Origin: Isurus oxyrinchus
Lineage: Eukaryota
Reading direction: 5' to 3'
NCBI GenBank assembly: GCA_026770705.1
Contig: JANJGN010000026.1
Coordinates: forward strand, 33,046,001-33,110,000
DNA: 64,000 nucleotides
Each line of letters opens with the position of its first letter. The stretch's first letter is position 1. A model generated the notes under the pieces. The model was not told the DNA's origin. It was given only the letters and a program-made list of their open reading frames with translations, and did not search any database. This document shows, one piece after another, positions 5,844 through 58,209 of this stretch. The translations under genes were made by a program, and so were the position numbers.

Positions 5844-6808
5844 TTACTTGTGAATTCGCTGGTGTCTCAGCAGGTGGGGTGAATGAGTGAATCTCTTCCC
5901 ACACTGGGCGCAAGTTATTGGTCTCTCCTCAGTGTGAACTCGCTGATGTATCAGTAGGTTGTTTGAGGTAGTGAATCTCTTCCCAAACTGAGGGCAGGTG
6001 AATGGCCTCTCTCCTGTGTGAATTCGTTGGTGTGTCAGCAGGTTGGATGAGGTAATGAATCTCTTCCCACACTGAGGGCAGGAAAACGGCCTCTTCCCAC
6101 TGTGAATTTGCTGGTGTCTCAGCAGGCTAGATAACTGAGTGAATCCCTTCCCACACTGGGGCAGCTAAATGGCCTCTCCCCAGTGTGAACTTGCTGGTGT
6201 GTCAGCAGGTGGGATGACCAAGTGAATCCCTTCCCACACTCAGAGCAGATAAATGGTCTCTCCCCCATGTGAACTCGCAGATGTCTCAGCAGGTGGGGTG
6301 AATAAATGAATCCCTTCCCACAAGTGGAGCAGGTGAACGGCCTCTCCCCAGTGTGAATTCGCTGGTGTACAATGAGTTGAGATGATCGCCTGAACCGATT
6401 CCCGCATTGAGAGCATTTAAATGGTCTCTTGTCAGTGTGAACACACTGATAGTACATCAGCTCCCAGGAACTTTTAAAGCACTTCCCACAGTCTGGGCAT
6501 TTAAAAGGTCTCACGTCACTGTGAACTTGCTGGTGTCTCAGCAAGTTGCATGAGAGGGTAAATCCCTTCCCACACGTGGAGCAGGTGAACGGCCTCTCCC
6601 CAGTGTGACTGCGCTGATGCTCTTCCAGCTCTGACGGGAATCTGAATCCCTTCCCACAGTCCCCACATTTCCATGGTTTCTCCCCGATGTGGCTGCACTT
6701 GTGTCTTGACAGGTCAGATGATTGGTTGAAGCCTTGTCCACACACAGGACATGTGTACAATTTCTCTCCACTGTGAACGGTACTTTTTCCTTCCATGTTC
6801 AAAATCAA
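5844..6808 (-). pseudogene. Tandem C2H2 zinc-finger gene A (about 11 fingers) with a 1-nt frameshift near 6160
   Basis: ORF 6119-6808 has seven finger units with HTGERPF linkers; four more continue in another frame to ...HK-stop at 5844. May be a truncated functional gene or an assembly indel. Confidence 0.75.
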
Positions 6809-10423: not shown

Positions 10424-11640
10424 GTCACTTATGAACTTGCTGATGTCTCAGGAGGCATCGTGACTGAGTGAATCCCTTCCCACACACTGAGAGTTGAATA
10501 ACCTCTTCTCAATGTGAGTGCGTTGGTGGGTCAGCAGGTTGAAAGATTTTGCAAATCCCTTCCCACACAGCGAGCAAGTGAATGGCTTCTCCCCAGTGTG
10601 AACTCGCTGGTGTGCGGTGAGGTTGGATGACCGACTGAATCCTTTCCCACATACGGAGCATGTGAATGGTCTCACCGCAGTGTGAGTGCATTGGTGAGCA
10701 GTGAGGTTGGATGACTGCCTGAGACTCTTCCCACAGGAAGTGCAGCTAAATGGCTTCTCCCCAGTGTGAATTCGCTGGTGTCTCAGCAGGTTGGGTAAAA
10801 CTGTGAATCCCTTCCCACACATGGAGCAGGCAAATTGTCTCTCCCCAGTGTGAACTTGCTGGTGTAAAATGAGGGAGGATGCCTGCCGGAAACTCTTTCC
10901 ACAGGAAGTGCAACTGAATGGCTTCTCTTCAATGTGAATTCGCTGGTGTGACAGCAGGTGGGATAACCCAGTGAATCCTTTCCCACACACAGAGCAAGTG
11001 AACAGCCTCTCTCCAGTGTGAACTCGCTGCTGTGTCAGGTGGAATGACTGAGTAAATCCCTTCCCACACTCGGAGCAGGTGAATGGCCTCTCCCCAGTGT
11101 GAGTGCATTGGTGTACAGTGAGTGCAGAAGAATGCCTGAACCTCTTTCCACAGGAAGTGCAGTTGAATAGCTTCTCCTCAGTGTGAATGCACTGGTGTGA
11201 CCAAAGGCCAGATGACTGAGTAAATCCCTCCCCGCACATAGAACAGGTGAATGGCCTCTCCCCTGTGTAACTGCGTTTATTGTTTTCCAGCAGATATGAG
11301 TAACTGAATCCTTTCCCAGAGTCCTCACATTTCCATGGTTTCTCCATAGTGCGGGTGTCTTTGTGTCTCTCCAGGTTGAATGATCAGTTGAAACCTTGTC
11401 CAGACACAGACCATGTGTATGGTTTCTCCTCACTGTGACCGATGTGATGCTTTTTCAGGCTGTTCAGCTGGTTAAAGCTCTTTCCACAGTCAGTTCACTG
11501 AAACACTCTCACTCGGGTGTGTGTGTGTGTGTGTGTGTGTCTCGGTGTTTTTCCAGTGACACTGAAGTTAAGTATCTTTCCCCACGAACAGAACAGACAA
11601 ACATTTCTCCTTCCACATTCAAAATCCGAGGATATTCAGG
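10424..11640 (-). pseudogene. Tandem C2H2 zinc-finger gene B, frameshifted at both ends of the finger array
   Basis: ORF 10448-11347 has about 10 finger units, the first degenerate (CEDSG...NKRSY); frameshift near 10490 before HK-stop at 10424; (GT)n tract at about 11517-11540 in the upstream region. Confidence 0.7.
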
Positions 11641-17436: not shown

Positions 17437-18222
17437 TCACTTATGAACTCGCTGGTGTGTAATCAGATCCTTTTCACTTTTAAAGGTCTTCTCACAGTCA
17501 GAACATTTAAAAGGTCTCTGATCAGTTTGAACAAGTTGATGTGTCAGAATGTGGGATGACCGAATGAATCCTTTTCCACACATGGAACATGTGAATGGCC
17601 TCTCGCCAGTGTGAACTCGCTGATGTGTCAACAGGTCAGATGAATTGGTATATCCCTTCCTGCACATGGAGCAGGTGAATGGCCTCTCCCCAGTGTGAAT
17701 TCGCTGGTGTGTCAGTAGTTTGGATGGCCGATTAAATCCCTTCCCAAAGATAAAGCAGGTGTATGGACTTTCCCCAGTGTGAATTCTCTGATGCGTCAGA
17801 AGCCTGGATAATCGGTTAAATCCCTCTCCACACAAGCAACAGATGAATGGATTCTCCCTTGTGTGAATGCGCTGGTGTGTCAGCAGGTAGGATGACTGAG
17901 TGAATCCCTTCCCACACACAGAGCAGGTGAACGGCCTCTCTAAACTGTGAGTTTGCTGGTGCCTCAGAAAGTTTGATGAATGAATGATTGCCTTCCCACA
18001 CACGGAGCAGATGACTGAACTCTGCTCAGTGTGAATGTGCTCGTGTCTCAGAAGGTTGGATGAATGAGTGAATCCCTTCTCACACACGGAGCAGGTGAAT
18101 GGCCTCTCCCCATTGTGGCTGCGTTGATGAATTTCCAGCTTTGATGGGGAAACAAATCCCTTCCCACAGTCCCCACATTTCCATGGTTTCACCATGGTGC
18201 TGGTGTCCTCGTGGCTGATCAT
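17437..18222 (-). CDS. Tandem C2H2 zinc-finger protein C (about 9 fingers)
   Basis: Uninterrupted 261-aa ORF with HTGERPFTC linkers ending QRVHK-stop; one finger has C>F; true start uncertain. Confidence 0.8.
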   Translation of the reverse strand: MISHEDTSTMVKPWKCGDCGKGFVSPSKLEIHQRSHNGERPFTCSVCEKGFTHSSNLLRHEHIHTEQSSVICSVCGKAIIHSSNFLRHQQTHSLERPFTCSVCGKGFTQSSYLLTHQRIHTRENPFICCLCGEGFNRLSRLLTHQRIHTGESPYTCFIFGKGFNRPSKLLTHQRIHTGERPFTCSMCRKGYTNSSDLLTHQRVHTGERPFTCSMCGKGFIRSSHILTHQLVQTDQRPFKCSDCEKTFKSEKDLITHQRVHK

Positions 18223-21096: not shown

Positions 21097-22004
21097 CTAG
21101 TTTACTAACTTCAGAATTAGATTCACAAGATATTTTGCTGCATTTTTCAGCTCCTCTCTGAATTTTCTCTGGGTCACTGCATAAATACACGTGTTGGTGC
21201 AGCAGCTCAGGAGTTGAAGCATGTTTCCGCTTTCTTGACGAATGAATTTGGGATCATTGAAATTGGAACCTGTAAAATAAGGTTCGTTTGTAATTTTCAC
21301 ATATAGGAAATTTACAACATACGTCATCCACAACAAAATGAAGCTTGCCGAGATGGTAAAGAGTAAAACGATTGACTTTCTCCGGTTCTCGATCTCTGGA
21401 TCACTCTGCTTCTCTCCACTGCTGTGAGCTCGGAGTCTCCTGCGGGCTCCACTGGCCACGAGGATGTGCCTGACGGTCAGAGCATTGAACAACAGAATCA
21501 GAAGGAATGGCAGACCCGGATTTAAAATACGTGCAAACCAATCATAGGCTGTCCATGCGAATGAAGTGTAGAAGCTTGATTTTACATTACAAAACCACGG
21601 TACATTGTTCATTATATAGAGTGGTTCATACATAAAGTACCAGGGAACACTTTTTAAACAGCTTAACAGACAGACAGTTCCTACAACCACAGCCGCCACT
21701 CTCTCGGTGCAATAATTTATTTTCAGCTTTTGGAAGCAAATGGCAATGTATCGATCAAAGGTGAAAGCGACGGTTAACCAGACAGAACTCTCCGTGGCTG
21801 CGTAGATTAGCACAGTACTGAGAGTACAGGCTGGAGTCATGGACATAAAACTAACGGGAAAATAAATGCCAATGATCCGATTGAATATCACAGCGCTCAC
21901 AACAACTAGGAGATCCGTCACTGCCATGGACACCAGGTACCGAGCGATGCATTTGGAGAGGCCACACCTTCCTCGGGATAGGATCACAATCGTCACCATG
22001 TTAA
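21097..22004 (-). CDS. GPR139-like class A GPCR, exon 2
   Basis: Acceptor ttttttctctcag at 22005; open frame VNMVTIVILSRG...FDRYIAICF...CTNTCIYAVTQRKFREEL-stop with multiple hydrophobic TM segments. Confidence 0.88.
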
Positions 22005-32166: not shown

Positions 32167-34482
32167 TTTCCGAGAAGAGATGTTCTCTGCCCCTGATAGT
32201 TGATGACAGAGATTCTCTGTGTTATTTATACTGTTGGAATTCTACAGAGAGACAATTAGCTTCCATAATTATTTACAGTTACCCGAACAAATAGATTCAG
32301 CAATTATTTTTCATGTTATTTTTGGGAGGTAGTAGAATGTTGGGAGACACTTGGGAGACGATTATCGAGTCTTGATGCCTCATGCAACCCAATGTAGTTT
32401 TGAATGTAACTTGTTAGTGCTTGCGCAGATCTAAAATATGCTTAGTTATGTGGAATGTTCATTTATGGGAGACACTGAAAGAAACATTGTTAGCTATTAG
32501 GCCGAAGCCAGCATAGCTCAGTGACGTGAGACCACGTAAGAATCAGAATGACAGTGACAGTCAAATTGCAAGTTATACCACACAATGGAAGTTATATCCA
32601 CACAATGCAAGTTATGCCAGCAGCAGCCAAGGAATATCCACACAACACAAAGCTTAATCTCACAACATCAACACGCATTTACACACGTTTAACATGTATT
32701 ATAACATTTTAAAACATTTTAAATGTTACCAAGCGCCTTACACGGGCACAATAAAATAAAATTGTGATTAAGTCACATAAAGAAATATTAGGATATTTTT
32801 GTATCAGTCCTAGGCTCCTTGATTCTGACGTTAGGCTCTTTTTCTGTGAATGTTTTAATGGATCCACATTATTTTACACTTCCTCTTTGATTATTACACT
32901 AGGCTCTGTCTCTGTTAGTATTCATCCTAATTATTGTTGTATTCCCAAGTCCATATACTGTGCTTTAAGAGGATACAGCGATAAACAAGATCCAGAATGT
33001 GTTTACTACAACAACATTGCATTGAATTGATGGCAAGTACTCCTCGAAAACTATTGTATCTGCATTACGTGTTGACTGTACGAAATCGTTGTTAGTAATT
33101 AAAAATAAGCAATTGATGTTGAGCCACCTGACTGAATCAATGCATTAAAAAATGTTACTTTCTTCCGATCCATATTTTAACCACTAATCATCCCTCCTAA
33201 ATACTAAACTTAGCCAAACAGCTCGAAACCCTTTAAGAACTGTGGTTTTATCCCTCTTCCAAGGACCGGGTCAAAAGTTACACGATTTACAAGCCGGGCG
33301 TTTTAATGCTGGGCGGAGCCTAAAAATACGCCGTCACCTCCTGACCCCGGATCAAGGGAGAAAGAGCCAATCACCGTGCTGTTATCCTGCTGACAATATT
33401 TTGCCCTGAGCCATTGAAAACCGGATGCCAGGTTTCTGTGACAGACAGTCGGCCCTGTATGTGAGTGTGTGATACAGCAGGCTGTGCATATCTGACGTGT
33501 TTGTAGGTAAAAAGGCTCGATTTATACGAAACATTATATAAACATTCGGTCTTAATGGACAAAATTGATCGTTTGTCCAGCCGCGAAGGACGATTTTCGC
33601 AGACTGCCGCCCGCACAACCTGTGCCACAGAAAGGGGCCTTCCCAGGCGCATTGAATTGTTGCAGCCGCTTCTTTCCACGCCCCATTCACCAAGGAAGCG
33701 AATCGAAAACCAACCTCCTGTTCTTTTTCTCTGCCCTTCCACCTATAGAAACTGTTTATTTTGATCTACTCAGCCCAGGGCCACATGATTTTGAGCACCT
33801 CTATCAGATCTACCCTGAACCTTCCATTTTCCATGGACAACAAACCCAGTTTCCCCAATCTATACAATTAACTGAAGTCCTGCATCCCTGGGACGATTCT
33901 GGTAAACTTCTCTGCGCCCTTTCTAAACCATTCACATCCCTCCTAAAGTGCGATGCCCGAAGTGGACATAATGCTCCAGTTGAGGGGTAATCAGTACTTT
34001 CCAGGGGAACAGTAGTATTCCTTTGCATTTGGACTCTATGCCACTGTTATGATGCCGATAATCCCGGATGTTTTAGCATTATTTCTCAGGCTGTTAGGCC
34101 ACCTTCAACCATTTATGTCAAAATAGTGCACATCGCTTGTTCAAGAATGGATAATTGAAAGAATTTTTTTGGCAGGGGTATTGTCGGCGGCTCGAAGTAT
34201 AAAAATATTAAAGGCTCTGCGGAGCCAGAAAGAATGTGCGAACTTGATGTCTTTAACGATTTTATTCTGTGCTACAAAATTATAAAGTCAATTGAAAATA
34301 CATTCGTGGAGTGATTCCCTCCCCCCACTACCCTTCTGTGTGTGTATGTGTGTGTGTTTATGTATGTGGTGTGTGTATGTATGTGTGTGTGTGTGCTCCT
34401 TTCAATTTAAACCCGAAAGTTGACAATTATTTGAACTCTTTCCGTGCCTTCCATTACTGTGTCTATAATCCCACCATGTTCA

Positions 34483-34756
34483 GGTTTTTGTACAGCTCTC
34501 TCCGTGCTCTGTATCACTGTGTGTCTGTTATCCCACCATGTTCAGGATTTTGTGCAGATCTCTCCGTGCTCTGTATCACTGTGTGTCTGTAATCCAACCA
34601 TGTTCAGGTTTTTGTACATCTCTCTCAGTGCTCTCTATCACTGTGTGTCTGTAATCCCAGCATGTTAAGTTTTTGTACAGCGCCCTCCGGTTTCTGTATC
34701 ACTGTGCATCATGCTGAGGTTTTTGTACAACTCTCTCCGTGCTCTATATCACTGTG
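34483..34756 (-). repeat. Tandem array of five complete 23-RSS
   Basis: Plus-strand nonamer/heptamer starts 34483/34515, 34545/34577, 34607/34639, 34668/34700, 34718/34750; each reads CACAGTG-23-ACAAAAACC-like on the minus strand; degenerate sixth unit near 34426-34461. Confidence 0.93.
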
Positions 34757-35028
34757 CTGTGCGCCAACTCAGTTCACAGTGATAAACTGCGGAGTCGCTC
34801 AATTGTAATTTGGAGATCTTCAACTGGCTGATTTTCTCCCCCAGGCAGCATTTTCTTTATTCTCCTCTCCTGAAATGTGTCCCTAAAGCAGATATTCCAG
34901 AGCCTGTCCTGGGGACTGACGGTACCAGCGTACTGTGCAGAACCCTGAATATTCCATGTTTAAAGTAACGGTGTCACCGATGGCAGAGATTTCTAGAGGC
35001 GAAATCCGGGAAATTATGGAACTGGAAT
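34757..35028 (-). pseudogene. Leaderless supporting TCR-delta V of NAR-TCR cassette 1
   Basis: Acceptor tcctccag; DSSSIIS...GDTVTLNMEYSGFCTVRWYRQSPGQALEYLL-stop...SQLKISKLQLSDSAVYHCELS; CDR1 Cys; first canonical Cys lost; stop and FR3 deletion/frameshift; followed by 23-RSS. Confidence 0.85.
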
Positions 35029-37959: not shown

Positions 37960-38051
37960 CAGCTGTGACAGTCACCAACGTCCCGGATCCATCCACATAT
38001 TTAATACATCACCACAGTGACACCGCTCTCAGTCTCCCCGGTACAACAACC
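37960..38051 (-). other. NAR-TCR J segment with 5' 23-RSS, cassette 1
   Basis: J 37960-38012 encodes (stop)CIKYVDGSGTLVTVTA with G|GTAAGT donor; heptamer 38013-38019, 23-bp spacer, nonamer ACAACAACC 38043-38051. Confidence 0.88.
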
Positions 38052-38366
38052 GCCGACACCTCACCCTGCCGGGAAATCATCATCAGACAGTAGAAACTTC
38101 CCAATTATTCAGCGGATTTAAATAATTAAACAATATTCAACGTTCCAAAGTCTCTGTTGGGTCAAACTGTTCTTTGTGAGGCCCTGAGCTCTGAGTATAT
38201 GGTGCCCGGAACGAGATGTTCGCTTCATGTAAACCGACAAAAATAACAAAGAAAGATAACTGAATGGTGGAAATTAAAATCAAATGTAACCAGATTCCAT
38301 TGATAATAGCATTTACCCGACAATTCACTATCCGAGCCCGGAGAATTTATATTTAAATCATACAGA

Positions 38367-38439
38367 GGTATTTGCTCAGGTCTCTCCTATTGTGACTCCC
38401 TCACCCATCCATACAGTGTTACAAGTCAGTATAACGTCC
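38367..38439 (-). other. NAR-TCR D segment flanked by two 12-RSS, cassette 1
   Basis: D core TGGATGGGTGAGGGAGT (38395-38411); J-facing CACAATA-12-GCAAATACC; V-facing TACAGTG-12-ATAACGTCC (degenerate, CAC lost). Confidence 0.75.
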
Positions 38440-38759
38440 CCCGGGTACTTGGGGAGATTTGGGGACATTAGTTAAACAGCAGGGACTGCGGTTCCCTGTA
38501 CCAGCTGTTAGACCAGGTTTGTAACTGGGATCAGTCGTTCCCAATCCTCACTCACTGACACCAATCCCGGGAAAAATATCACCATCCGCACACACTCGGC
38601 ATTTATAACACTCAAGATGTTAACAGCAATAATCCAATCTCATTATAAACTAGACTGTGGGGCAGACGGTCCTGTGGGGGAACTGAAGCGGAACTGTGGG
38701 GGTTTAACTGCAGACTTCACTCCACTTTTCCATTTGTTTCTGTGACAATCTGCAGTGAG

Positions 38760-39233
38760 AGTTTTTGTATCGCGGGAAGCCGAGGCCCATCACTGTGTAT
38801 CAATAGTATTGAGCTTTACAGTAATAGGTGGCGGTGTCTTCAACTCTCACATCCCGAATTTCCAGAGAAAATGTCTTTTCTACTTTATTCACCGACGCAA
38901 CAATTCTCCCCGCGCTGTGGATCGGCTCCCACAATGTCCCGGGTTTGTCTGAAGAAATGCCCATTTTTAAAATAATAATAATTATCATTGAAAACACAGG
39001 TGATGGTGAGAGACTGACACTCCTTCCTGGTCACCGCTGCCGGGGTCTGTACCACTGACTGACTGAAAGAGCCTGGAAATTAAACAGAGTTTAATGGAGC
39101 ATCAGAGCCGAACCACAGAACTGGTTTAAAACCCCGGACAGTGTCTGTATTTGAGATGGATACGGACAGTTTTGTTTGATCTGCATTCACGGGGTAAACA
39201 GACATACAGAGTGAAAAGAAGGAGGATTCCCAT
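38760..39233 (-). pseudogene. NAR-TCR V (IgNAR-like V) with leader and RSS, cassette 1
   Basis: Leader 39191-39233 MGILLLFTLYVCLP; V exon 38798-39072 QSVVQTPAAVTRKECQSLTITCVF...FFRQT / SVNKVEKTFSLEIRDVRVEDTATYYCKAQYY; short FR2-CDR2 region; extra FR1 Cys; 5-nt deletion versus copy 2 causes a frameshift; CACAGTG-22-ACAAAAACT. Confidence 0.9.
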
Positions 39234-40094
39234 CTGCCTGGAGCTGAGGGTTTATATGACGGGGAGCTGGAGCCTGCAGCCTTGGACTGCACTGGGAGAC
39301 CGGATCTCAGAGCTGGACTGAAATACTTTAGGGGAATCGAGTTAATTTGCACAGGGCAGTTTCGCTGAGATTATTGATGGGCCGCATGGTTCCCGGATAG
39401 CTGGCTAAGTGTTGTGGAAATAAGAGACAGTTGTATAAAAGGAAACTGCAACTTTCTGACCTTTCGTTTGGATAGTGATCCGGATGTGAAAGCCCCTCCC
39501 ACAATACTCTGGTGTACAGGGTTGGGGGAGGGGAGCTTTACTTTCTGCCAGTTGTGCTGCCGCCTTCCTTGCCCCACAGTGGTGAACTGGGAGGTCGGTG
39601 CATGTCTTTGTATTGGGTGGTGTTTGTTAAAGGCCCAGGACACCAAGAGAAACCCCCCGACCCACTCTTACTCCAACATTCCGGAGATTCTCCCTGTCAT
39701 TTAGCCAAATGCATCCTGCACCAGCCCTGCGATGGGTTACATGTAAAATGGCGTTTAATTTCAGCCATGTTTGACTTCCAGATTGGGAAAATTCAGAATT
39801 TCTGTTAGCAGTAAGTGAGATGGAAACGGCACTCGGGAGGACAACAGACCTTGGGGGGCTTTCTTCTTGGGGCTCTCTTTAAAGATGACATCACAACATT
39901 CTGTTCTGAAAACTGTTTCTGGTGTATGATTATCTCTCAACCAGCAACAGCAATACTCAATCAAATAAACCCCGTGACAAGGCCGAGGTCAGAGGCTTCA
40001 CGAAGCTGACACCGGAGTTCGGGAAAAAGCTGCTCAACGTTGCGGGCAGGTACGGAAATGCCATTAAAAGGCGAAACGGAAATTAAGAACTGCA

Positions 40095-40393
40095 GCACGT
40101 CACACAAACATGGCCGACAGGACGTCACAAAAACATGATCAACAGTAAGTCACACGAACATGGCCGACTGTACGTCACAAAAACATGATCGACAGTTTCG
40201 TCACGCAAAGATGATCTACCGTATGTCACACAAACCTGGCAGACAGCTTTTTCACACCAACATGGCCGACAGTACAACACAAACATGGCCGACAGTACGT
40301 CACACCAACATGGCCGACAGTACGTCACACCAACATGGCCGACAGTACGTCACGCAAACGTGGCCGATAGTACGTCACACAAACATGGCCGAT
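40095..40393. repeat. 25-bp minisatellite, about 12 units
   Basis: Consensus about cacacaaacatggccgacagtacgt, repeated in tandem. Confidence 0.85.
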
Positions 40394-42789: not shown

Positions 42790-45360
42790 GGGCATCAAAT
42801 GTTAGTGCGGGTTGTATATAGACCCGAAACTGTGGTGGTGATGTTGGGACTGGAATTAAACAGGAAATTAGAGACGTATCCAATAAAGAAACATCTGTAA
42901 TTATGGGTGACTTTAATCTGCATATAGATTGGGCAAATCAAATACCGTAGAAGAAGAATTCTTGGAGTGTATACAGGATGGCTTTCTGGACCAATGCATT
43001 GAGAAACGAACTAGAGAACAGGCTATTCTTGACTGGGTATTGTGTAATGAGAAAGGAATAATTGGCAATCTAGATGTGCCAGGCCCCTTGGCGATGAGCG
43101 GCCATAATATGATAGAATTCTTCATCAATATGGAGAGTGACGGAGTTGATTCTGAGACTGGTGTCCTGAACCTTAATACAGGAAACTACGATGGTGTGAG
43201 GCGTGCGTTGGCGATGATGGATTGGGAAACGTTACTTAAAGGGATGACGGTGGTTAAGCAATGGCAAACATTCAAAGAGCGCATGGGTGAACTGAAACAA
43301 TTGTTATTCCTGCCTGGTGCAAAAGTGAAACACAAACGTGGCCAAACCATGGCTTATGAGAGAAATTAGAGATAGTATTAGATGCAAGGAAGAGGCATAC
43401 AAATTGGCCAGGAAAAAAATAAAGCAGACCTGTACATTGGAAGCAGATTAGAATCCAACAAAGGAGGACCAAGGTATTGATTAAGAAGGAGAAAATAGAG
43501 TACCAGAATAAGCTTGCAGGGAACGTAAAACCTGACTGTAAAAGTTTCTATACTTATGTGAAGAGAAAAAGGTTGGTGAAGACAAATGTAGGTTCCTCAC
43601 AGTCAGAAACAGGAGAATTTAAAATGTGGAGCAAAGAAATGGCTGACCAAGTAAGTACATACTTTGGTTCAGTCTTCACAAAGAGGACACAAATAACATA
43701 CTAGAAATGTTGGGAAACACAGGGTTTAGAGAGATGGAGGAACTGAAAGAAATCTGTATTAGTAGGGAAATGGTGTTGGGGAAATTGATGGGATTGAAGG
43801 CCGATAAATCCCCAGGGCCTGATAATCTACATCCCAGAGCACTTAAGTAAATGACCCTAGAAATAGTGTATGCATTGGTGGTCATCATCCTAGATCCTAT
43901 ACACTCTGGTACAGTTCCTGCAGATTGGAGAGGAGCTAATGTAACCCCACTATTTAAAAAGAGTGGTACAGAGAAAACAGGGAATAAAAGGCCAGTCAGC
44001 CTGACGTCGCTAGTGGGGAAAATTCTAGAGCCCATTATAAAAGATTTAATAGCTGAGCACTTGGAAAACATTGGCAGAATCGGACAGTCAGCACACATTT
44101 ACGTCAAATCTATTGGAATTCTTCGAGGATGTCACTAGTGGAGTGGATGCATTTTAGTTGGACTTTCAGAAGACTATCGACAAAGTCCCACAGAAGAGAT
44201 TAGCATGTAAATTTAAAGCATATGAGATTGGGGATAGTTTGTTGAGATGGATAGAAAACTGGTTGGCAGACATGAAACAAAGAGGAGGAATACACGGGAC
44301 ATTTTCGGAATGGCAGGCAGTGACAAGTCGGGTACCTTAGGGATCGGTGCTGCGTCCCAGGCTATTAACAATAGATATTAATGATTTAAATTAGGGAACT
44401 AAATGTAATACCTCTAAATTTGCAGATGACACAAAGCTGGGTGGGAGGGTGAGTTGTGAGGAGGATGCAGAGAAGCTTCAGTGTGATTTGGACAGGCTGA
44501 GTGAGTGGGAAAATGCATGGCAGGTGAAGCATAATGTGGATAAATTTGAGGTTATCCATTTGGATGCAAAAACAGGAAGGCAGATTATTATCTGAATGGC
44601 TATAAATTGAGAGAGGGGAATGTGCAACGAGACCTGGGTGTCGTCGTACACCAATCGCAGAAGGTAAGCATGCAGATGCAGCAGGCGCAAAAGAAGGCAA
44701 ATGGTACGTTGACCTTCATAGCAGAGGATTCCAGTACAGGAGCAGGATGTCTTGCTGCAATTGTACAGGGCCTTGGTGAGGCGACAACTAGAATATTATG
44801 ACCAGGTTTAGGCTCCTTATATGAGGAAGGATGTTCTTGCTATAGAGGGGGTGCAGCGAACATTTATCAGACTGATTCCTGGGCTGGCGGGGCAGACATA
44901 TGAGGAGTGATTGAATCGGTTACGATTATATTCACTGGGGTTCAGAAGAATGAGAGCAGAATCTCATAGAAGACTATAAAATTCTAATAGGGCCATTCAG
45001 TGTAGATGCAGGAAGGATGGTCCCGATGGCGGGGGAGTCCAGAACCAGAGGTCACAGTCTGTGGATACGGGGTAGACCATTTAGAATTGAGATGAGAAGA
45101 AATGTCTTCACCCAGAGAGTGGTGAGCCTGTGGAATTCGCTACCACCAAAAGTATTTGATGCAAAAATATCGCATGATTTCAAGAAGTAGTTAGATATAG
45201 CTCTTGGGGCGAAAGGGATCAAAGGGTATGGGCAGAAAGCGGGAGCAGGCTATTGAGTTGGATGATCAGCCACAATCATGATGAATGGCGGAGCAGGCTC
45301 GAAGGGCCTATGGCATACGCCTGCTCCTACTTTCTATGTTTCTATGTTTTTATGTTTTCT
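42790..45360 (+). mobile_element. 5'-truncated CR1 LINE
   Basis: FLECIQDGFLDQ, RPVSLTSLVGKILE, FADDTKLGG; terminal (ttctatgt)n repeats. Confidence 0.88.
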
Positions 45361-46160: not shown

Positions 46161-46570
46161 NNNNNNNNNNNNNNNNNNNNNNNNNNNNNNNNNNNNNNNN
46201 NNNNNNNNNNNNNNNNNNNNNNNNNNNNNNNNNNNNNNNNNNNNNNNNNNNNNNNNNNNNNNNNNNNNNNNNNNNNNNNNNNNNNNNNNNNNNNNNNNNN
46301 NNNNNNNNNNNNNNNNNNNNNNNNNNNNNNNNNNNNNNNNNNNNNNNNNNNNNNNNNNNNNNNNNNNNNNNNNNNNNNNNNNNNNNNNNNNNNNNNNNNN
46401 NNNNNNNNNNNNNNNNNNNNNNNNNNNNNNNNNNNNNNNNNNNNNNNNNNNNNNNNNNNNNNNNNNNNNNNNNNNNNNNNNNNNNNNNNNNNNNNNNNNN
46501 NNNNNNNNNNNNNNNNNNNNNNNNNNNNNNNNNNNNNNNNNNNNNNNNNNNNNNNNNNNNNNNNNNNNNN
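46161..46570. other. Assembly gap (410 N)
   Basis: Run of N. Confidence 1.
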
Positions 46571-46723
46571 GCTCTGTATCACTGTGTCTGTAATCCCACC
46601 ATGTTCAGGTTTTTGAACTGCTCTCTCCGTGATCTAACCCTGAACATTCACAGCTTCAAGTAACGGTGTCACCGACAGCAGATGTTTGTAGAGGTGGGCA
46701 CTAAGACACCAGGGAACTGGAAT
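46571..46723 (-). pseudogene. Truncated supporting TCR-delta V of cassette 2 fused to RSS-array units
   Basis: Acceptor ttctccag; DSSSLVS-stop...AVGDTVT-stop-SCECSG, then a jump at about 46636 into RSS spacer; nonamer 46608-46616, array linker, heptamer 46580-46586. Confidence 0.82.
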
Positions 46724-48132: not shown

Positions 48133-48210
48133 CGGCTGTGACAGTCACCACCATCCTGGATCCATCTACATAATTAGCACACCACTCTCAATCTCCCAGG
48201 TACAAGAACC
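48133..48210 (-). pseudogene. NAR-TCR J of cassette 2, defective
   Basis: YVDGSRMVVTVTA; donor GT>AT; heptamer deleted while most of the spacer and nonamer ACAAGAACC remain. Confidence 0.8.
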
Positions 48211-48517
48211 ATCGACAACTCAACCTGCCAGGAAATCATCATCGGGCAGTAGACACCTCACAATTATACAGCAGGTTTAAATGAATAATCAATATTCAAT
48301 GTTTCAAAGTCTCTATCTGTTCAAACTGTTCTTTCTGAGACCCTGAGCTCTGAGTAAATGGTCCCAGGAATGAGATATTCGCTTCATATAAACCGGAAAA
48401 AATATCAAAGAAAGATTACTGAATGGTGAAAATTAAAATGAAATGTAACCAGATTGCAATGATATTAACATCAACCGGACAATTCACTATCCGGGCCCGG
48501 AGAATTAATATTTACAA

Positions 48518-48576
48518 AGTATTTGCCCTACTCTCTCCCACTGTGACTGCCCGTGTAACAAGTTAGTATAAAATAC
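48518..48576 (-). pseudogene. NAR-TCR D remnant of cassette 2
   Basis: Intact J-facing CACAGTG-12-GCAAATACT; about 14-nt deletion removes most of D and part of the V-facing heptamer. Confidence 0.72.
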
Positions 48577-48709
48577 CCACGGGTGCTAGGTGAGATGTGG
48601 GGACATTAAATAGCGGGGACTGCAGTTCCCGGTTCCAGCTGTTAGAACAGGATCACATCTGGTGTTAGGGGTTTGTAACTGGGATCAGTTATTCCTAATC
48701 CCCATTCAG

Positions 48710-51215
48710 AAATGAGAAAACAAATTACTGAGTTAGAGACGTATGTAATAAGGGTACAACTGTATTCATGGGTGACTTTAATCTATATATTGATTGGGCA
48801 ACCAAACTAGCAATAATACTGTGGAGGACGATTCCTGGAGTCTGTACGTGATGGTTGTTTAGGCCAATACGTTGAGGAGCCAACTGGAGAGCAGGTTATC
48901 CGAGACTGGGTATTGTGCAATGAGAAAGGATTAATTAACAACCTTGTTGTGCAGGGTCCCTGGGGGAAGAGCTACAATAACATGATAGAATTGTTCCTTA
49001 AGGTGGAGAGTGAAGGAGTTGAATCCGAAACTAGTGTCCTGGATCTAAATAAAGGGAACTGCAAGGTTATGAGGGGAGAGTTGGCAATGATGGATTAGGG
49101 AACCTTACGAAAAGAGCTGACAGTGGATCGGCAATGGTTAATATTTAAGGAACGTATACAACAATTATTCATTCCCGTCTGGCGCAAACATAGTATGGGA
49201 AAGATGGTTCAACCATGGATTACAAAAAAAATTAGGGATAGTATTAGATCCAACGAGTAGACATAAAAATTTCCAGAAAAAGCTTCAATCCTGAGAGTTG
49301 GAAGCAGTTTAGAATTCAGCAAAACGGGAAAAAAAGACTGATCAAGAAGGGGAAAATGGAGTATGAGAGTAAACTTGCAGGGAACATAAAAACTGATTGT
49401 AAAAGCTTCCATAAATATGCGAAGAGAAAATGATTAGTAAACTAACACTCACAAGCGGGGGAAACTATAGTTGGGAACAAAGAAATGGCATAAAAATTAA
49501 AGAGATATTTTGGTTCTGCCTTCACAAAAGGCAACACAAGTAATTTCCCAGAAATGTTAGGGAACCAGTGAGAGCGAGGAATTGAAGGAGATTAGCATTA
49601 GTGAAAAAAATTGTGCTGGACAAATTAATGGGGTTAAAATCTGAAAAATCCCCAGGGCCTGATAATCCACATCCCAGATTTCTAAAGGAGGTGACGCTGG
49701 AAATATTGGATGCATAGGTGGTCACCTTCCAAAATTCTATAGACTCTGGAACAGTTCCTACATATTGGGGAGTGGCAAATGTAACCCCATTATTTTAAAA
49801 AAGGAGGGAGAGCAAAAACAGATAATACAGAGCAGTTAGCCTAACATCAGTTGTGGGGAAAATGCTAGAGTCTGTTATAAAAGACATGCTAACTGAACAC
49901 TTGGAAAGCATCAATGGGATTAGACAAAGTCAGCATTGGTTTATGAAAGGGAAATCATGCTTAACTAATCTACTCGAGTTTTTTGAGGATGTAATTAGTA
50001 GAATAGATAAGGGAGAACCACTAAATGTGGTGTATTTGGATTTCAAGAAGGTTTTAATAAGGTCCCACGTAAGAGTCTAGTGGACAAAAGTAAAGCACAT
50101 GGGATTGGAGGTAATATACTGGCTTGTATTGAGAATTGGTTGACAGACCAGAAACAGGCAGTGGGAATAATGGGTCTTTTTTCCAGGTGGCAGGCCGTGA
50201 CTAGTGGTGTCCCGCAGAGATCAGTGCTTGAGCCCCAGTTATTCACAACATATATAGATAATTTGGATGAGGAAACCAAATGCAATATTTCCAAGTTTGC
50301 TGACGACACAAAACTGGACGGGGCTGTGAGATGTGAGGAGCATGCAACAGGGATTCAGGGCAATTGAGACAAGTTGTCTGTGTGTGTCGGCAATCACATG
50401 GCAAGTGCAGTATAACGTGGATAAATATAAAGTTACGCTTTGGTGTGAAAAACAGAAAGTCAGAGCATTATATCAATGGTGATAAATTGGGAAATATGGG
50501 TGTAGGAAGGAGTTTGGGTGTCGTTGTACACCAGCCAATGAAACTAAACAGGCAAATTAGGAAGGAAAATGGTATGTTGGCCTTCATTTAAAGTGGATTT
50601 GATTTCAGAAGTATGGATGTTTTATTGTAGTTGCAAAGGGCCTTGGTGAGAACACACCTGGAGAATTGCGTGCAGATTTTGTCTCTCTACGCAAGAAAAG
50701 ATATATTTGCCGTAGAGGGAGAGCAGCGAATGTTCACGAGGCTGATACTGGGCATAGCAGGACTGTCGAATGAGGGGAGATTGGTTCAACTGGGCCTGCA
50801 TTCACTAGAGTTTAGAAGAATGAGAGGGGATCTGATTGAAACACATATAATTCTAACAGCGCTAGAAAGAATAGATGCAGGAAGGATGTTTTCCCTGGTT
50901 GGGGAGTCCAGAACCAGGGGCCACCGTTTCAGAATACGTGGAAGGCCATTTAGGACCGAAATGAGGAAAATTCCTTCACTCAGAGGGTGGTCAACCTGTA
51001 GAATTCTCGACCAAAGAAGGCTATGGAGTCACTGAGTATATTCAAGAAAAAATCGACACATTTTTGGATATTAGTGGCATCAAGTGGTATGGACAGAAAG
51101 CGGGAATATGGTGTTTAGATCGAGGATCAACCATGATAATATTGAATGGCGGAACAAGATCGAAGGGCCGAACGGCCTACTCCGGCTCCTATTTCTATGT
51201 TTCTATGTTCCTCTG
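48710..51215 (+). mobile_element. 5'-truncated CR1 LINE inserted in the V-D interval of cassette 2
   Basis: GKSCLTNLLEFFEDV, FADDTKL, terminal ttctatgt repeats; flanks are contiguous in cassette 1 (about 38550). Confidence 0.88.
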
Positions 51216-51422
51216 TTTCACCAACACCAACCCCGGGGAAGCCTTCACCATCTACTTGGTAGTTTTAAAACTGAAGATGTTAACGGTAATAATCCAATCG
51301 CACTATAAACTAGACTGGGGGTGGGGGGGGGGGGGGGGCAGACGGTGTGAGGCGGAACTGTAGGCGTTTAACGGCAGATTAACTCCGCTTTTTTACCTGT
51401 TTTTATGATAATCTGCAGTGAG

Positions 51423-51926
51423 AATTTTTGTATCCCGGGAAGCCGAGGCCAGTCGCTGTGTAACGTAGTACTGAGATTTACAGTAATAGGTGGTAGTGCC
51501 TTCAACTCTCACATCCCAAATTTCCAACGAAAATGTCTTTCCTGTTTTATTCATTATTCATTCAATGTCCCCCTGCTGGAGATCCGCTCCCGCTCTGCCC
51601 CGGTCTGGGTTTGTCTGATGAAAAGCCCCGTTTGGAAAATATCCCAATAACCAGCATGGAAAACACAGGTGATGGTGAGAGACTGACACTGCTTCCTGGT
51701 CACCGCTGCTGGGGTTTGTGCCACTGGCTGACTGAAATCTCCTGGAAATTAAACAGAGATAGTTTCATGGACCATCAGAGCCGAATCACAGAACCGGGTC
51801 AAACCCCCTGTCTGTAATTGGGATGGACCCGGGCAGCTTTATATGAAATCCACATAATGTCGGTTTGTGTGATCGGTACTCACGGAGTAAACAGACACAC
51901 AGAGTGAAAACAAAGTGGATTCCCAT
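51423..51926 (-). pseudogene. NAR-TCR V with leader and RSS, cassette 2
   Basis: Leader 51884-51926 MGIHFVFTLCVCLL; V exon 51461-51741 QPVAQTPAAVTRKQCQSLTITCVFHAGYWDIFQTGLFIRQTQTGAERERISS / NKTGKTFSLEIWDVRVEGTTTYYCKSQYY; 1-nt deletion; CACAGCG-22-ACAAAAATT. Confidence 0.9.
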
Positions 51927-55936: not shown

Positions 55937-58209
55937 TGCATTATATGATATTATACAGTGTTATGGTAAATTAATGTCAATTACTTGCAGTTCCATGCTG
56001 AATCATTACAAGCTTTTATTCAAAATAGTTTGCCGCACATTTATACAGATAGTTTATTTGATCACTGAAATATGTATTGAAAGTTATGACATTGCCTGAA
56101 CAATAATTTGTTATATTATTGAACATTAGATTATATTCTAATATAGTGAAATGCAACATAGTGTTTTACTGTTGTGTGGAATTAAAACGTATCATGGTGT
56201 GGTCAAATTCATTTTCGTGTCCTGCTCTTATTAGAGTGTCAGAAAATAAATAAAACAATGCAATCATGATGTTATATCAATCGTAATGTAAAAATACATT
56301 TAGTTTTTACATGAGTGTGCAGTGTGACTTCTGGAAGGGTGTCACAATTACGACATAGCGAGTTCCTGCTGGCAGTCCCCATTGTTAATGTGTTACGGAA
56401 TTGATTATGGGAAGGTTTAAGAGAAATAGGTCGTGATTGAAGATTTTTATTCTATTATATGTTTGGCTTGTGCTGGTAGGTTTCCTACAATTTGGATAAT
56501 TACATTTCTTAAACATTAGCTTGATGTGGCTGCCCCTGGCAAGGCCAAAATGCATTGTCCATCTCTAGTTTGCACTTGGGAAGGTGGAGTTGCGCTTGGT
56601 TCTTCAGCCATTGCAGTACTTATGGTCGGGATGCTTCACAAGAACTTGAACAAATTTGAACGACGTATTTGACCCAAAGTTTGATCAAAGAGTTAGGTTA
56701 TGAGGAACATCCTAGAGAAGGAAGGAGAGACAGAAAAGTTGAGAGCAGGAATTTCAGAGATGAGGGCCTCAGCGACTAAAAGCATTACCGAGGCTAAAGA
56801 ATGATAGTTTCAGGGATACACACAAAATTAGAGGTACGCCGAGGCCTCAGATAGTTGCAGAATGTTACAGCGCAGGACGTGGCTATATTATGGGGGGGGG
56901 AGTTTAAAACTCGAAGGCCGAGGTTATTGAAACCCAGACGATGCCGAATGGGGCCCAATGTAGATCAGCGAGCGTAGGGTTAATGGACGGACGGGATTTG
57001 GTATGAATGTGGGTATCGGCAGCTGTCTCAAATGAACTTAAATTGGATAAATAGCCCTGGGCTGACTCAGTGACGAGAGAGCTGAGAATGTGGTGGGAAC
57101 GGATTGCAATGCCTTCTGGATTGACACACGTCTAATCCAGAATTGGATGTTTTACAATTACCAATGGCTTTTGAAGATTTGTGGTCTAGAGATGGCAAAG
57201 GGACGGATTAGGAGGGGATCAGTAACTGATTGGATAAGGCAGTAAATGGTGTTTGCAGTTCACTCGGTAACATCTCACTCTTTTTATCCCTCACGTTCAT
57301 CTATGACCTAACATAGTGGTGATCATAATCCTATCCCGAAGACAGTGTGGACTCTCCCGGTGCATCACCTACTACCTGGTGGCAATAGCAGTGAGCGATC
57401 TCCTGGTCATTATCACTGCCGCCATCCTCAACCGGATCGGCCGGATCTACTTTCGTGACAGTGTCCTGTCGACCACCCCAGCAAGCGCAGTCAGGATCAT
57501 GCTGGTCTTTGCCATGCAAGATGGCTCAGTCTGGCTGACAGTTGCCTTCACCATCGCCCGTTTCGTGGCCATCTGCTGTCAGGGCCTAAAGACCAGATAC
57601 TGCACCGAGAAAACTGTGGTGCTGGTTATAGGAGTGGTCAGTACCCTGAGGTGCGTCAAGAACGTCCCTTTGTACTTCGTCTGCCAGCCCTTGTACATCC
57701 TGGACGGGGTGCCCTGATTCTGTGACCGCAAATCCACCTATTTCACTTTCCCCGCCTGGCAGACCTATGACTGGCTGGACCGCATCTTAACCCCATTTCT
57801 CCCTTTCTTCCTCAGCCTGCTGCTCAATGTCCTGACCGTAAGACACATCTTAGCGGCCAGCAGAGCCCGCAAGAGGCTCCGGGGCGCCGAGAGTCACAGA
57901 GACCCCGAGATGGTCAATCGTAAGTGATCCATTATCCTGCATTTTGCGATTGCACTCAGCTTCCTCCTCCCGTGGGCCACCTATGTTGGACATTTCCTCT
58001 ACGTGTGGATTACAAGTAAGGACTGCTTCAACAGCATGAACTTCAATGACCCGCAGTATATCCTCCAGGAGACAGCCAACATGCTGCAGTTAGTCAGTTC
58101 CTGCAACAACGTCTTCATCTATGCGGTGGCCCAGAAGAAGTTCCGAGAGGAGCTGAGGAAGGTTTTGATGTGGCCGGTCACCACGTTCACTGGCTGGTTT
58201 AAACGGTAA
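55709..58209 (+). pseudogene. GPR139-like GPCR pseudogene, two exons
   Basis: Exon 1 55709-55778 (ACG)HGPANGLFFATCYPILAIIGAP with G|GTAAGT; exon 2 57308-58209 with acceptor AG>AC, DRY>ARF, in-frame TGA at 57715 and about 57925; paralogue of 21097-22004. Confidence 0.88.
55901..55933. repeat. (TA)n microsatellite
   Basis: Directly visible. Confidence 0.9.

What the first reader, a model, noticed from the sequence alone, without database searches (positions are those of the whole stretch)
46161..46636. A second RSS array is probably hidden in the assembly gap
Sequence resumes after the gap mid-unit (gctctgtat-cactgtg-tctgtaatcccaccatgttca-ggtttttga-spacer), in the same position relative to cassette 2's supporting V. 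The array therefore predates the cassette duplication or was co-duplicated. Short-read assemblies may collapse such arrays, which could explain why they would be overlooked.
Basis: partly seen in the sequence, partly recalled or inferred. Interest (0 to 1): 0.72.

Follow-up and report, generated by a model that had tools for sequence, protein, structure and literature searches.

The report
Repeated cut signals, broken shark gene
A broken copy of a shark T-cell-receptor gene carries a remnant of a head-to-tail repeat of its DNA cut signal, as most sister copies do, but the unread stretch beside it is not an assembly gap and likely holds at most two more repeats plus a simple microsatellite, and the spare signals appear to be unselected passengers.

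Summary
Partly right. The bases after the N run are a 62-bp recombination-signal (23-RSS) unit behind the supporting V of a second NAR-TCR cassette, 87-88% identical to cassette 1's array. But the N is no assembly gap: the genome copy has no N there. In 12 usable sisters the same interval is 75-336 b of array plus 264-491 b of GATA microsatellite, so 410 b likely holds 0-2 complete units. This cassette is dead: its supporting V stops after CDR1 and lost its own heptamer. The array is family-wide: 58 of 80 supporting-V copies carry 2-10 units, with traces in other sharks, so it predates the duplication. Only the V-proximal signal is conserved (2.3% vs 6.3% mismatch); units 3+ are not (7.4% vs 7.3%). 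A join at a spare signal keeps an in-frame stop. Best reading: a neutral RSS minisatellite that RAG sometimes cuts, as two chromosomal signal joints suggest. The scan noted such arrays before on other DNA (13 notes).

The parts
46161..46570 (.). 410-base N run; not an assembly gap; letters not read; likely 0-2 complete RSS units, a terminal half unit and a GATA-type microsatellite
   Evidence: no N in the genome copy; content inferred from 12 sister cassettes
46571..46586 (-). second array unit, visible part: perfect heptamer (46580-46586) and 9 nt of spacer; could also be the terminal half unit
46587..46607 (-). inter-unit flank, 21 nt (23 nt in the closest sisters)
46608..46635 (-). headless first unit: spacer remnant and nonamer (46608-46616), heptamer lost
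46636..46723 (-). remnant of leaderless supporting TCR-delta V: splice acceptor, FR1 and part of CDR1, with stops; about 70 codons deleted
48133..48210 (-). cassette 2 NAR J (48133-48177) with broken splice donor and shortened, degenerate 23-RSS
48515..48580 (-). cassette 2 NAR D remnant, 3' 12-RSS intact, 5' RSS degenerate
48733..51218 (+). LINE reverse-transcriptase-like fragment inserted between NAR V and D
   Evidence: ORF pieces, 70% like 42868-45357; LINE identity recalled from motifs, not searched
51423..51745 (-). cassette 2 NAR-type V (frameshifted) with 22-nt-spacer RSS at 51423-51460
51884..51926 (-). cassette 2 leader exon
34458..34756 (-). cassette 1 array: five 23-RSS units at 50-62 b spacing, three perfect
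34757..35028 (-). cassette 1 supporting V, stop and frameshift
37960..38051 (-). cassette 1 NAR J with 23-RSS
38361..38450 (-). cassette 1 NAR D between 12-RSS
38760..39090 (-). cassette 1 NAR-type V (frameshifted) with RSS at 38760-38797

Best explanation
The feature is the remnant of a 62-bp minisatellite made from the supporting V's own 23-RSS, in a dead NAR-TCR cassette, and the unread 410 bases likely hold 0-2 more complete units plus a GATA microsatellite. Shown: the cassette anatomy, the truncated V, the headless first unit, the family-wide arrays of 1-10 units, and the selection pattern. Inferred mechanism: an early tandem duplication of RSS plus flank behind the supporting V has since grown and shrunk by slippage and unequal crossing-over, and was carried along in each cassette duplication. 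Only the V-proximal RSS gives a productive join to D-delta or J-delta 12-RSS, because the V frame stops inside the first heptamer. Spare copies stay RAG-cleavable while young, would give sterile joins, are sometimes cut in the germ line, and decay at the background rate.
For: 58 of 80 supporting-V copies have 2-10 complete units, 20 have one, 2 lost the V end. Copy number differs between nearly identical cassettes (5 vs 8; 6, 7, 10) and between dead ones (headless subfamily, 2-6 units; signal-joint copies, 3 vs 6). Signal vs neutral mismatch: unit 1, 17/748 vs 109/1732 (p 1e-5); unit 2, 40/618 vs 126/1555 (p 0.21); units 3+, 102/1372 vs 247/3396 (p 0.85). In the 32 intact cassettes, unit 1 vs 2 differ at 26 signal sites, against 29.9 expected if unit 2 is neutral and 7.9 if constrained; the distal-distal ratio is 0.96. 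Intact cassettes with a single RSS exist, four of them near C-delta on C242. The in-frame stop at the first heptamer is seen. D-delta (12/23) and J-delta (12) partners lie beside C-delta. Sister intervals. One search also found no alignment of 150 b or more to cassette 1's array and no near-consensus RSS at the window's own place, whereas 8 of 8 other sisters gave alignments of about 200-260 b; this points to the low end of 0-2.
Against: The array has persisted across distant sharks and is confined to this V class: 0 of 30 NAR-V RSS and 0 of 3 ordinary-V copies have a second RSS, and 7 of 7 perfect tandem pairs in the genome are in this family. Long persistence is unusual for a neutral repeat. 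Intact cassettes carry longer arrays than broken ones (32 vs 42, Mann-Whitney p 0.013, not corrected for kinship). Over all cassettes unit 2 is intermediate (51 observed, 67.7 expected if neutral, P 0.02), and in intact ones its raw signal mismatch is below neutral (p 0.024). Units share ancestry, so all p-values are too small. The unit count under the N is inferred, not read.
Confidence: 0.66

Rival explanations
1. The array is a selected RAG landing pad: extra 23-RSS raise capture of distant supporting V segments, and RAG then transfers to, or re-cuts at, the V-proximal signal.
For: Class specificity; 73 of 78 perfect 23-RSS listed on C26 belong to this family; persistence across sharks; longer arrays in intact cassettes; cassettes spread over about 17 Mb around one C-delta.
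Against: No conservation of heptamer or nonamer in units 3+, nor in unit 2 of intact cassettes beyond inheritance; intact single-RSS cassettes exist; a distal cut consumes a D or J 12-RSS without product.
Confidence: 0.17
2. The array is a selected decoy: spare RSS absorb RAG, including unwanted joins to the cassette's own NAR-D 12-RSS 3-4 kb upstream, and so tune or delay use of NAR-TCR cassettes.
For: A precise signal joint of a NAR-D 5' 12-RSS to an array 23-RSS in L012 and L046 shows these signals pair; the longest arrays sit in the germline-joined clade.
Against: The same lack of selection on distal signals; which unit was used in the signal joint cannot be told, and that join destroys the cassette whichever unit is used.
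Confidence: 0.1
3. One reading: a sizeable array like cassette 1's lies under the N.
For: A perfect heptamer runs into the N; two sisters of this subfamily have five nonamers in the interval; microsatellite length is variable.
Against: The three closest sisters have 1-2; 3 units would need a microsatellite shorter than in any of 12 sisters; one search shows no gap and no long array match at this place.
Confidence: 0.07

Closest known systems
NAR-TCR of cartilaginous fishes (NAR V-D-J plus leaderless supporting TCR-delta V; Criscitiello et al. 2006, not held; described in PMC1845163 passages; PMC12227049 passages; PMC6795676 passages)
   Same: Leader, IgNAR-like V with extra Cys and no WYRK Trp, D, J, then a leaderless V with CDR1 Cys, on the chromosome that holds D-delta, J-delta and C-delta.
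   Different: The supporting V is followed by 1-10 tandem RSS instead of one; both cassettes in this window are pseudogenes; none of the passages read mentions RSS arrays.
Germline V(D)J recombination in sharks (Lee et al. 2000, as discussed in PMC2193153 passages)
   Same: Pre-joined segments and RSS-exact junctions fixed in the genome.
   Different: Described there for Ig clusters; here in NAR-TCR cassettes (17 of 81 scored rows have joined NAR VDJ) and as a chromosomal signal joint at an array RSS.
Minisatellite (VNTR); general knowledge, recalled
   Same: Head-to-tail 50-63 b units, variable copy number, partial homogenisation, background-rate decay.
   Different: The unit is a recombinase target, and the first copy is under purifying selection.
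TCR-mu supporting V of marsupials and monotremes (PMC3457774 passages)
   Same: Double-V receptor in duplicated cassettes.
   Different: Convergent origin; there the supporting V is germline-joined or D-less, here the outer NAR V is the joined one in a clade; no RSS array mentioned in the passages.

Membership tests
NAR-TCR cassette | N-terminal V related to IgNAR V | tested here: met
   Cassette 1 V piece hits many VNAR structures (best VNAR E 1.9e-9); cassette 2 V is 80% identical in DNA
NAR-TCR cassette | NAR V has an a-b loop Cys and lacks the WYRK Trp (PMC1845163) | tested here: met
   both seen in cassette 2's V and in the family
NAR-TCR cassette | own D and J between the two V, with 12/23-compatible RSS | tested here: met
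   22-spacer V RSS, 12-D-12, 23-J in cassette 1 and sisters; degenerate in cassette 2
NAR-TCR cassette | supporting V is leaderless and has a CDR1 Cys | tested here: met
   splice acceptor directly before FR1, in phase with the J donor; CDR1 Cys in cassette 1 and intact sisters. Cassette 2's remnant breaks off before that Cys
NAR-TCR cassette | linkage to TCR-delta D, J and C | tested here: met
   C-delta at C26:29.90 Mb, same strand, 3.2 Mb downstream; D and J with 12-RSS beside it
NAR-TCR cassette | this copy is functional (open frames, intact RSS and splice sites) | tested here: not met
   frameshifted NAR V, broken J donor and J-RSS, truncated supporting V: a pseudogene member
NAR-TCR cassette | doubly rearranged transcript | not testable with these tools
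   no RNA holder listed
23-RSS | heptamer, 23-nt spacer, nonamer (PMC2193153) | tested here: met
   cassette 1: 5 of 5 units near-consensus, 3 perfect. At the finding: the first unit lacks its heptamer; the second unit's nonamer, if any, is unread
23-RSS | cleaved by RAG | tested here: inconclusive
   signal joint at an array unit in 2 loci, unit rank unknown; 2 of 5 kinds of internal deletion end at a distal heptamer; no direct assay
D-segment array | each short coding piece flanked by RSS on both sides (12 and 23) | tested here: not met
   flanks have only a downstream 23-RSS; upstream lies the previous nonamer
neutral minisatellite | tandem units with variable copy number among near-identical loci | tested here: met
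neutral minisatellite | no site-specific constraint within units | tested here: met
   units 3+ 7.4% vs 7.3%; unit 2 borderline; not kinship-corrected
neutral minisatellite | copy-number polymorphism among individuals | not testable with these tools
   only short contigs of other runs were available

The most novel reading that the evidence does not exclude
The RSS minisatellite is an ancient, class-specific RAG platform of shark NAR-TCR cassettes. Unit number, rather than unit sequence, sets how often a cassette is captured or silenced, and the same platform draws RAG activity in germ cells, leaving chromosomal signal joints, heptamer-flush deletions and a clade of pre-joined, invariant NAR V domains next to C-delta.
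Probability: 0.2. Interest if true: 0.72.

Novelty: new variant of a known kind. Interest (0 to 1): 0.38.

Why it matters
For this place, little: it is a decayed remnant in a pseudogene, and the gap premise fails. For the family: tandem RSS behind a V segment were not found in the literature searches run, though the primary NAR-TCR papers were not held. The arrays are a natural series of 1-10 signals behind one V type, which makes it testable how RAG chooses among adjacent RSS. They also record germline RAG activity in a TCR locus. The selection test argues against the attractive 'helper' reading for the spare copies.

Tried and rejected
Assembly collapse: rejected. Spare units as D segments or CDR3 extenders: rejected; there is no 5' RSS and an in-frame stop lies in the first heptamer. 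RAG transposition as origin: units are direct head-to-tail with a constant flank, not signal-end pairs. First selection tests were flawed and replaced: one search picked units by their heptamer; searches ran into non-array flanks and inflated distal mismatch; one search fixed this, and one search removed CpG and two polymorphic columns. The 'goodRSS' column was faulty and redone. L031 was dropped (left anchor outside the fetched stretch), leaving 12 of 13. Expression: no RNA holder listed; contigs of 4 coded runs gave only short pieces, with one 62-b back-joint in X1 and array pieces in X2 and X4; nothing on use of the signals. PDB search of the supporting V gave only generic antibody V hits. 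Papers not held: PMC1458790, PMC7909615, PMC3222143, PMC7039070, PMC12010099; they or their supplements may show the arrays. The place look-up of earlier notes was empty.

Full report
Context. The window lies at G000:C26:33,046,001-33,110,000. It holds two minus-strand cassettes: leader, IgNAR-like V with a 22-nt-spacer RSS, a D between 12-RSS, a J with a 23-RSS, and a leaderless V. The outer V matches VNAR structures. An intact sister of the inner V matches two-V gene models of many sharks and rays at 64-88% identity, some spliced to a TCR constant domain. These are the NAR-TCR features given in PMC1845163 (passages). A C-delta exon with D and J segments lies at C26:29.90 Mb, 3.2 Mb from the window and on the same strand, and a second copy is on C242; that this constant domain is delta rather than alpha rests on recalled motifs and on the 12/23 D beside it.

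The observation. The quoted letters are at 46571-46635 and match cassette 1's five-unit array (34458-34756) at 87-88%. Read on the cassette strand, the supporting V exon starts at 46723, carries stops, and breaks off in CDR1 at 46636, fused to the middle of an RSS spacer. About 70 codons and the V's own heptamer are gone. The nonamer, a 21-nt flank, a perfect heptamer and 9 nt of spacer follow before the N. The J donor, J-RSS and NAR V frame of this cassette are also broken, so it is dead.

What the N is. The genome copy of this place has no N, so it is not an assembly gap, and 38 of 38 sister loci were N-free. The letters were not read; their content is inferred. Thirteen sisters share the truncated V, and 12 could be measured between the two visible anchors: 433-603 b, made of 75-336 b of array (1-5 nonamers) and 264-491 b of GATA-type microsatellite. 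The three closest sisters in the tree have 1, 2 and 2 nonamers. With 410 b, two complete units leave 273 b of microsatellite and one leaves 335 b; three would leave 211 b, below every sister. The visible heptamer could also be the terminal half unit that ends these arrays, giving none. One search found no alignment of 150 b or more to cassette 1's array and no near-consensus RSS at this place, while 8 of 8 other sisters aligned over about 200-260 b, and the list of perfect 23-RSS on C26 has none here. All this favours 0-2 complete units.

The family. A protein search gave 108 supporting-V matches. I fetched all clusters of the DNA search and most C26 and C242 matches, skipping many on other unplaced contigs, some of which are probably redundant copies. 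Of 80 scored copies, 58 have 2-10 complete units, 20 have one and 2 have none; on C26 alone 39, 13 and 2 of 54. All 7 perfect tandem 23-RSS pairs in the 5-Gb genome belong to this family, as do 73 of the 78 perfect 23-RSS listed on C26. None of 30 NAR-V signals and none of 3 ordinary-V copies has a second signal. In a 93-row tree, multi-unit arrays occur in every major clade, and cassettes 1 and 2 are far apart (midpoint root, deep branches weak). Read-through tails of gene models translate as 2-3 units in Hemiscyllium (P0031, P0033, P0037), the start of a second unit in Pristiophorus (P0032) and five units in an ENA contig (P0044); Pristis (P0045) shows one clear unit. This is protein-level evidence only.

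Mechanism. The V frame meets a stop inside the first heptamer, so only a join at unit 1 is productive, and the flanks are not D segments. After removing CpG and two polymorphic columns, signal vs neutral mismatch is 2.3% vs 6.3% in unit 1 (47 distinct units), 6.5% vs 8.1% in unit 2 (40) and 7.4% vs 7.3% in units 3+ (87). In intact cassettes unit 2 differs from unit 1 at 26 signal sites, against 29.9 expected if neutral and 7.9 if constrained. Against this reading: over all cassettes unit 2 is intermediate (51 vs 67.7, P 0.02), intact cassettes have longer arrays (p 0.013), and the array is old and class-specific. Units are related, so the p-values overstate. Copy number changes between nearly identical cassettes and in dead ones, as in a VNTR. 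RAG has acted on these cassettes in the germ line: L012 and L046, 88.5% identical over 3.6 kb, carry an exact heptamer-to-heptamer joint between the NAR-D 5' 12-RSS and an array 23-RSS. A 12-nt flank deletion in 16 unit copies and a 6-nt one in 3 end at a distal heptamer, 2 of 5 kinds of internal deletion (suggestive only). 17 of 81 scored rows have a joined NAR VDJ. I put the neutral minisatellite with occasional RAG cuts at 0.66, a landing pad at 0.17, a decoy at 0.10 and a large hidden array at 0.07.

Comparison and novelty. Germline joining in shark Ig clusters is established (PMC2193153, passages). Five searches (listings only, except the papers named) showed no report of RSS arrays behind the NAR-TCR supporting V, but the primary papers were not held. 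PMC12227049, PMC3457774 and PMC6795676 were read as passages. The scan's own notes hold 13 findings on such arrays in at least 11 genomes, one in this genome; they are leads, not support. Two prompted the unit-2 and deletion-end tests.

Verdict. Observation partly confirmed; interpretation partly supported. The family-wide array is a new variant of a known system and of moderate interest; this site is a short remnant in a pseudogene and not a gap. Interest 0.38.

Noticed in passing
L012 (C26:29.96 Mb), L046 (C242:380 kb): Exact heptamer-to-heptamer signal joint of the NAR-D 5' 12-RSS with an array 23-RSS, retained on the chromosome in two copies 88.5% identical; D, J and supporting V are deleted.
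   Followed up: partly
L013, L017, L024, L025, L027, L032, L035, L039, L041, L044, L064, L066, L068, L070, L071, L075; L098 separately: Germline-joined NAR VDJ: a 16-copy clade (100/100) that includes four cassettes 70-150 kb upstream of C-delta on C26; the junction is in frame in the 10 copies printed, and a nearly identical one is in a Carcharodon gene model, P0009.
   Followed up: partly
L050, L051, L107; L056-L063, L065; L073, L086, L108: NAR V apparently joined to D in the germ line, with no V-RSS and a D-type 3' signal following.
   Followed up: no
C26:23.1-40.2 Mb: At least 54 supporting-V copies in both orientations spread over about 17 Mb around a single C-delta; in the window they lie next to zinc-finger repeats.
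   Followed up: partly
C31:1.18-1.60 Mb: Cluster of 14 perfect 23-RSS with shared spacers, probably another antigen-receptor locus.
   Followed up: no
window 5849-6368, 10467-11272, 17540-18117: 84-bp-period arrays, read as C2H2 zinc-finger exons from the period (identity recalled, not searched).
   Followed up: no
window 40093-40392: 25-bp minisatellite, 12 copies, upstream of cassette 1's leader.
   Followed up: no
window 57309-58156 and 21147-22003: Two related stretches (64% identical, opposite strands) that look like broken G-protein-coupled receptor genes (identity recalled).
   Followed up: no
window 42868-45357 and 48733-51218: Two LINE reverse-transcriptase-like fragments, 70% identical, one inside cassette 2.
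   Followed up: no
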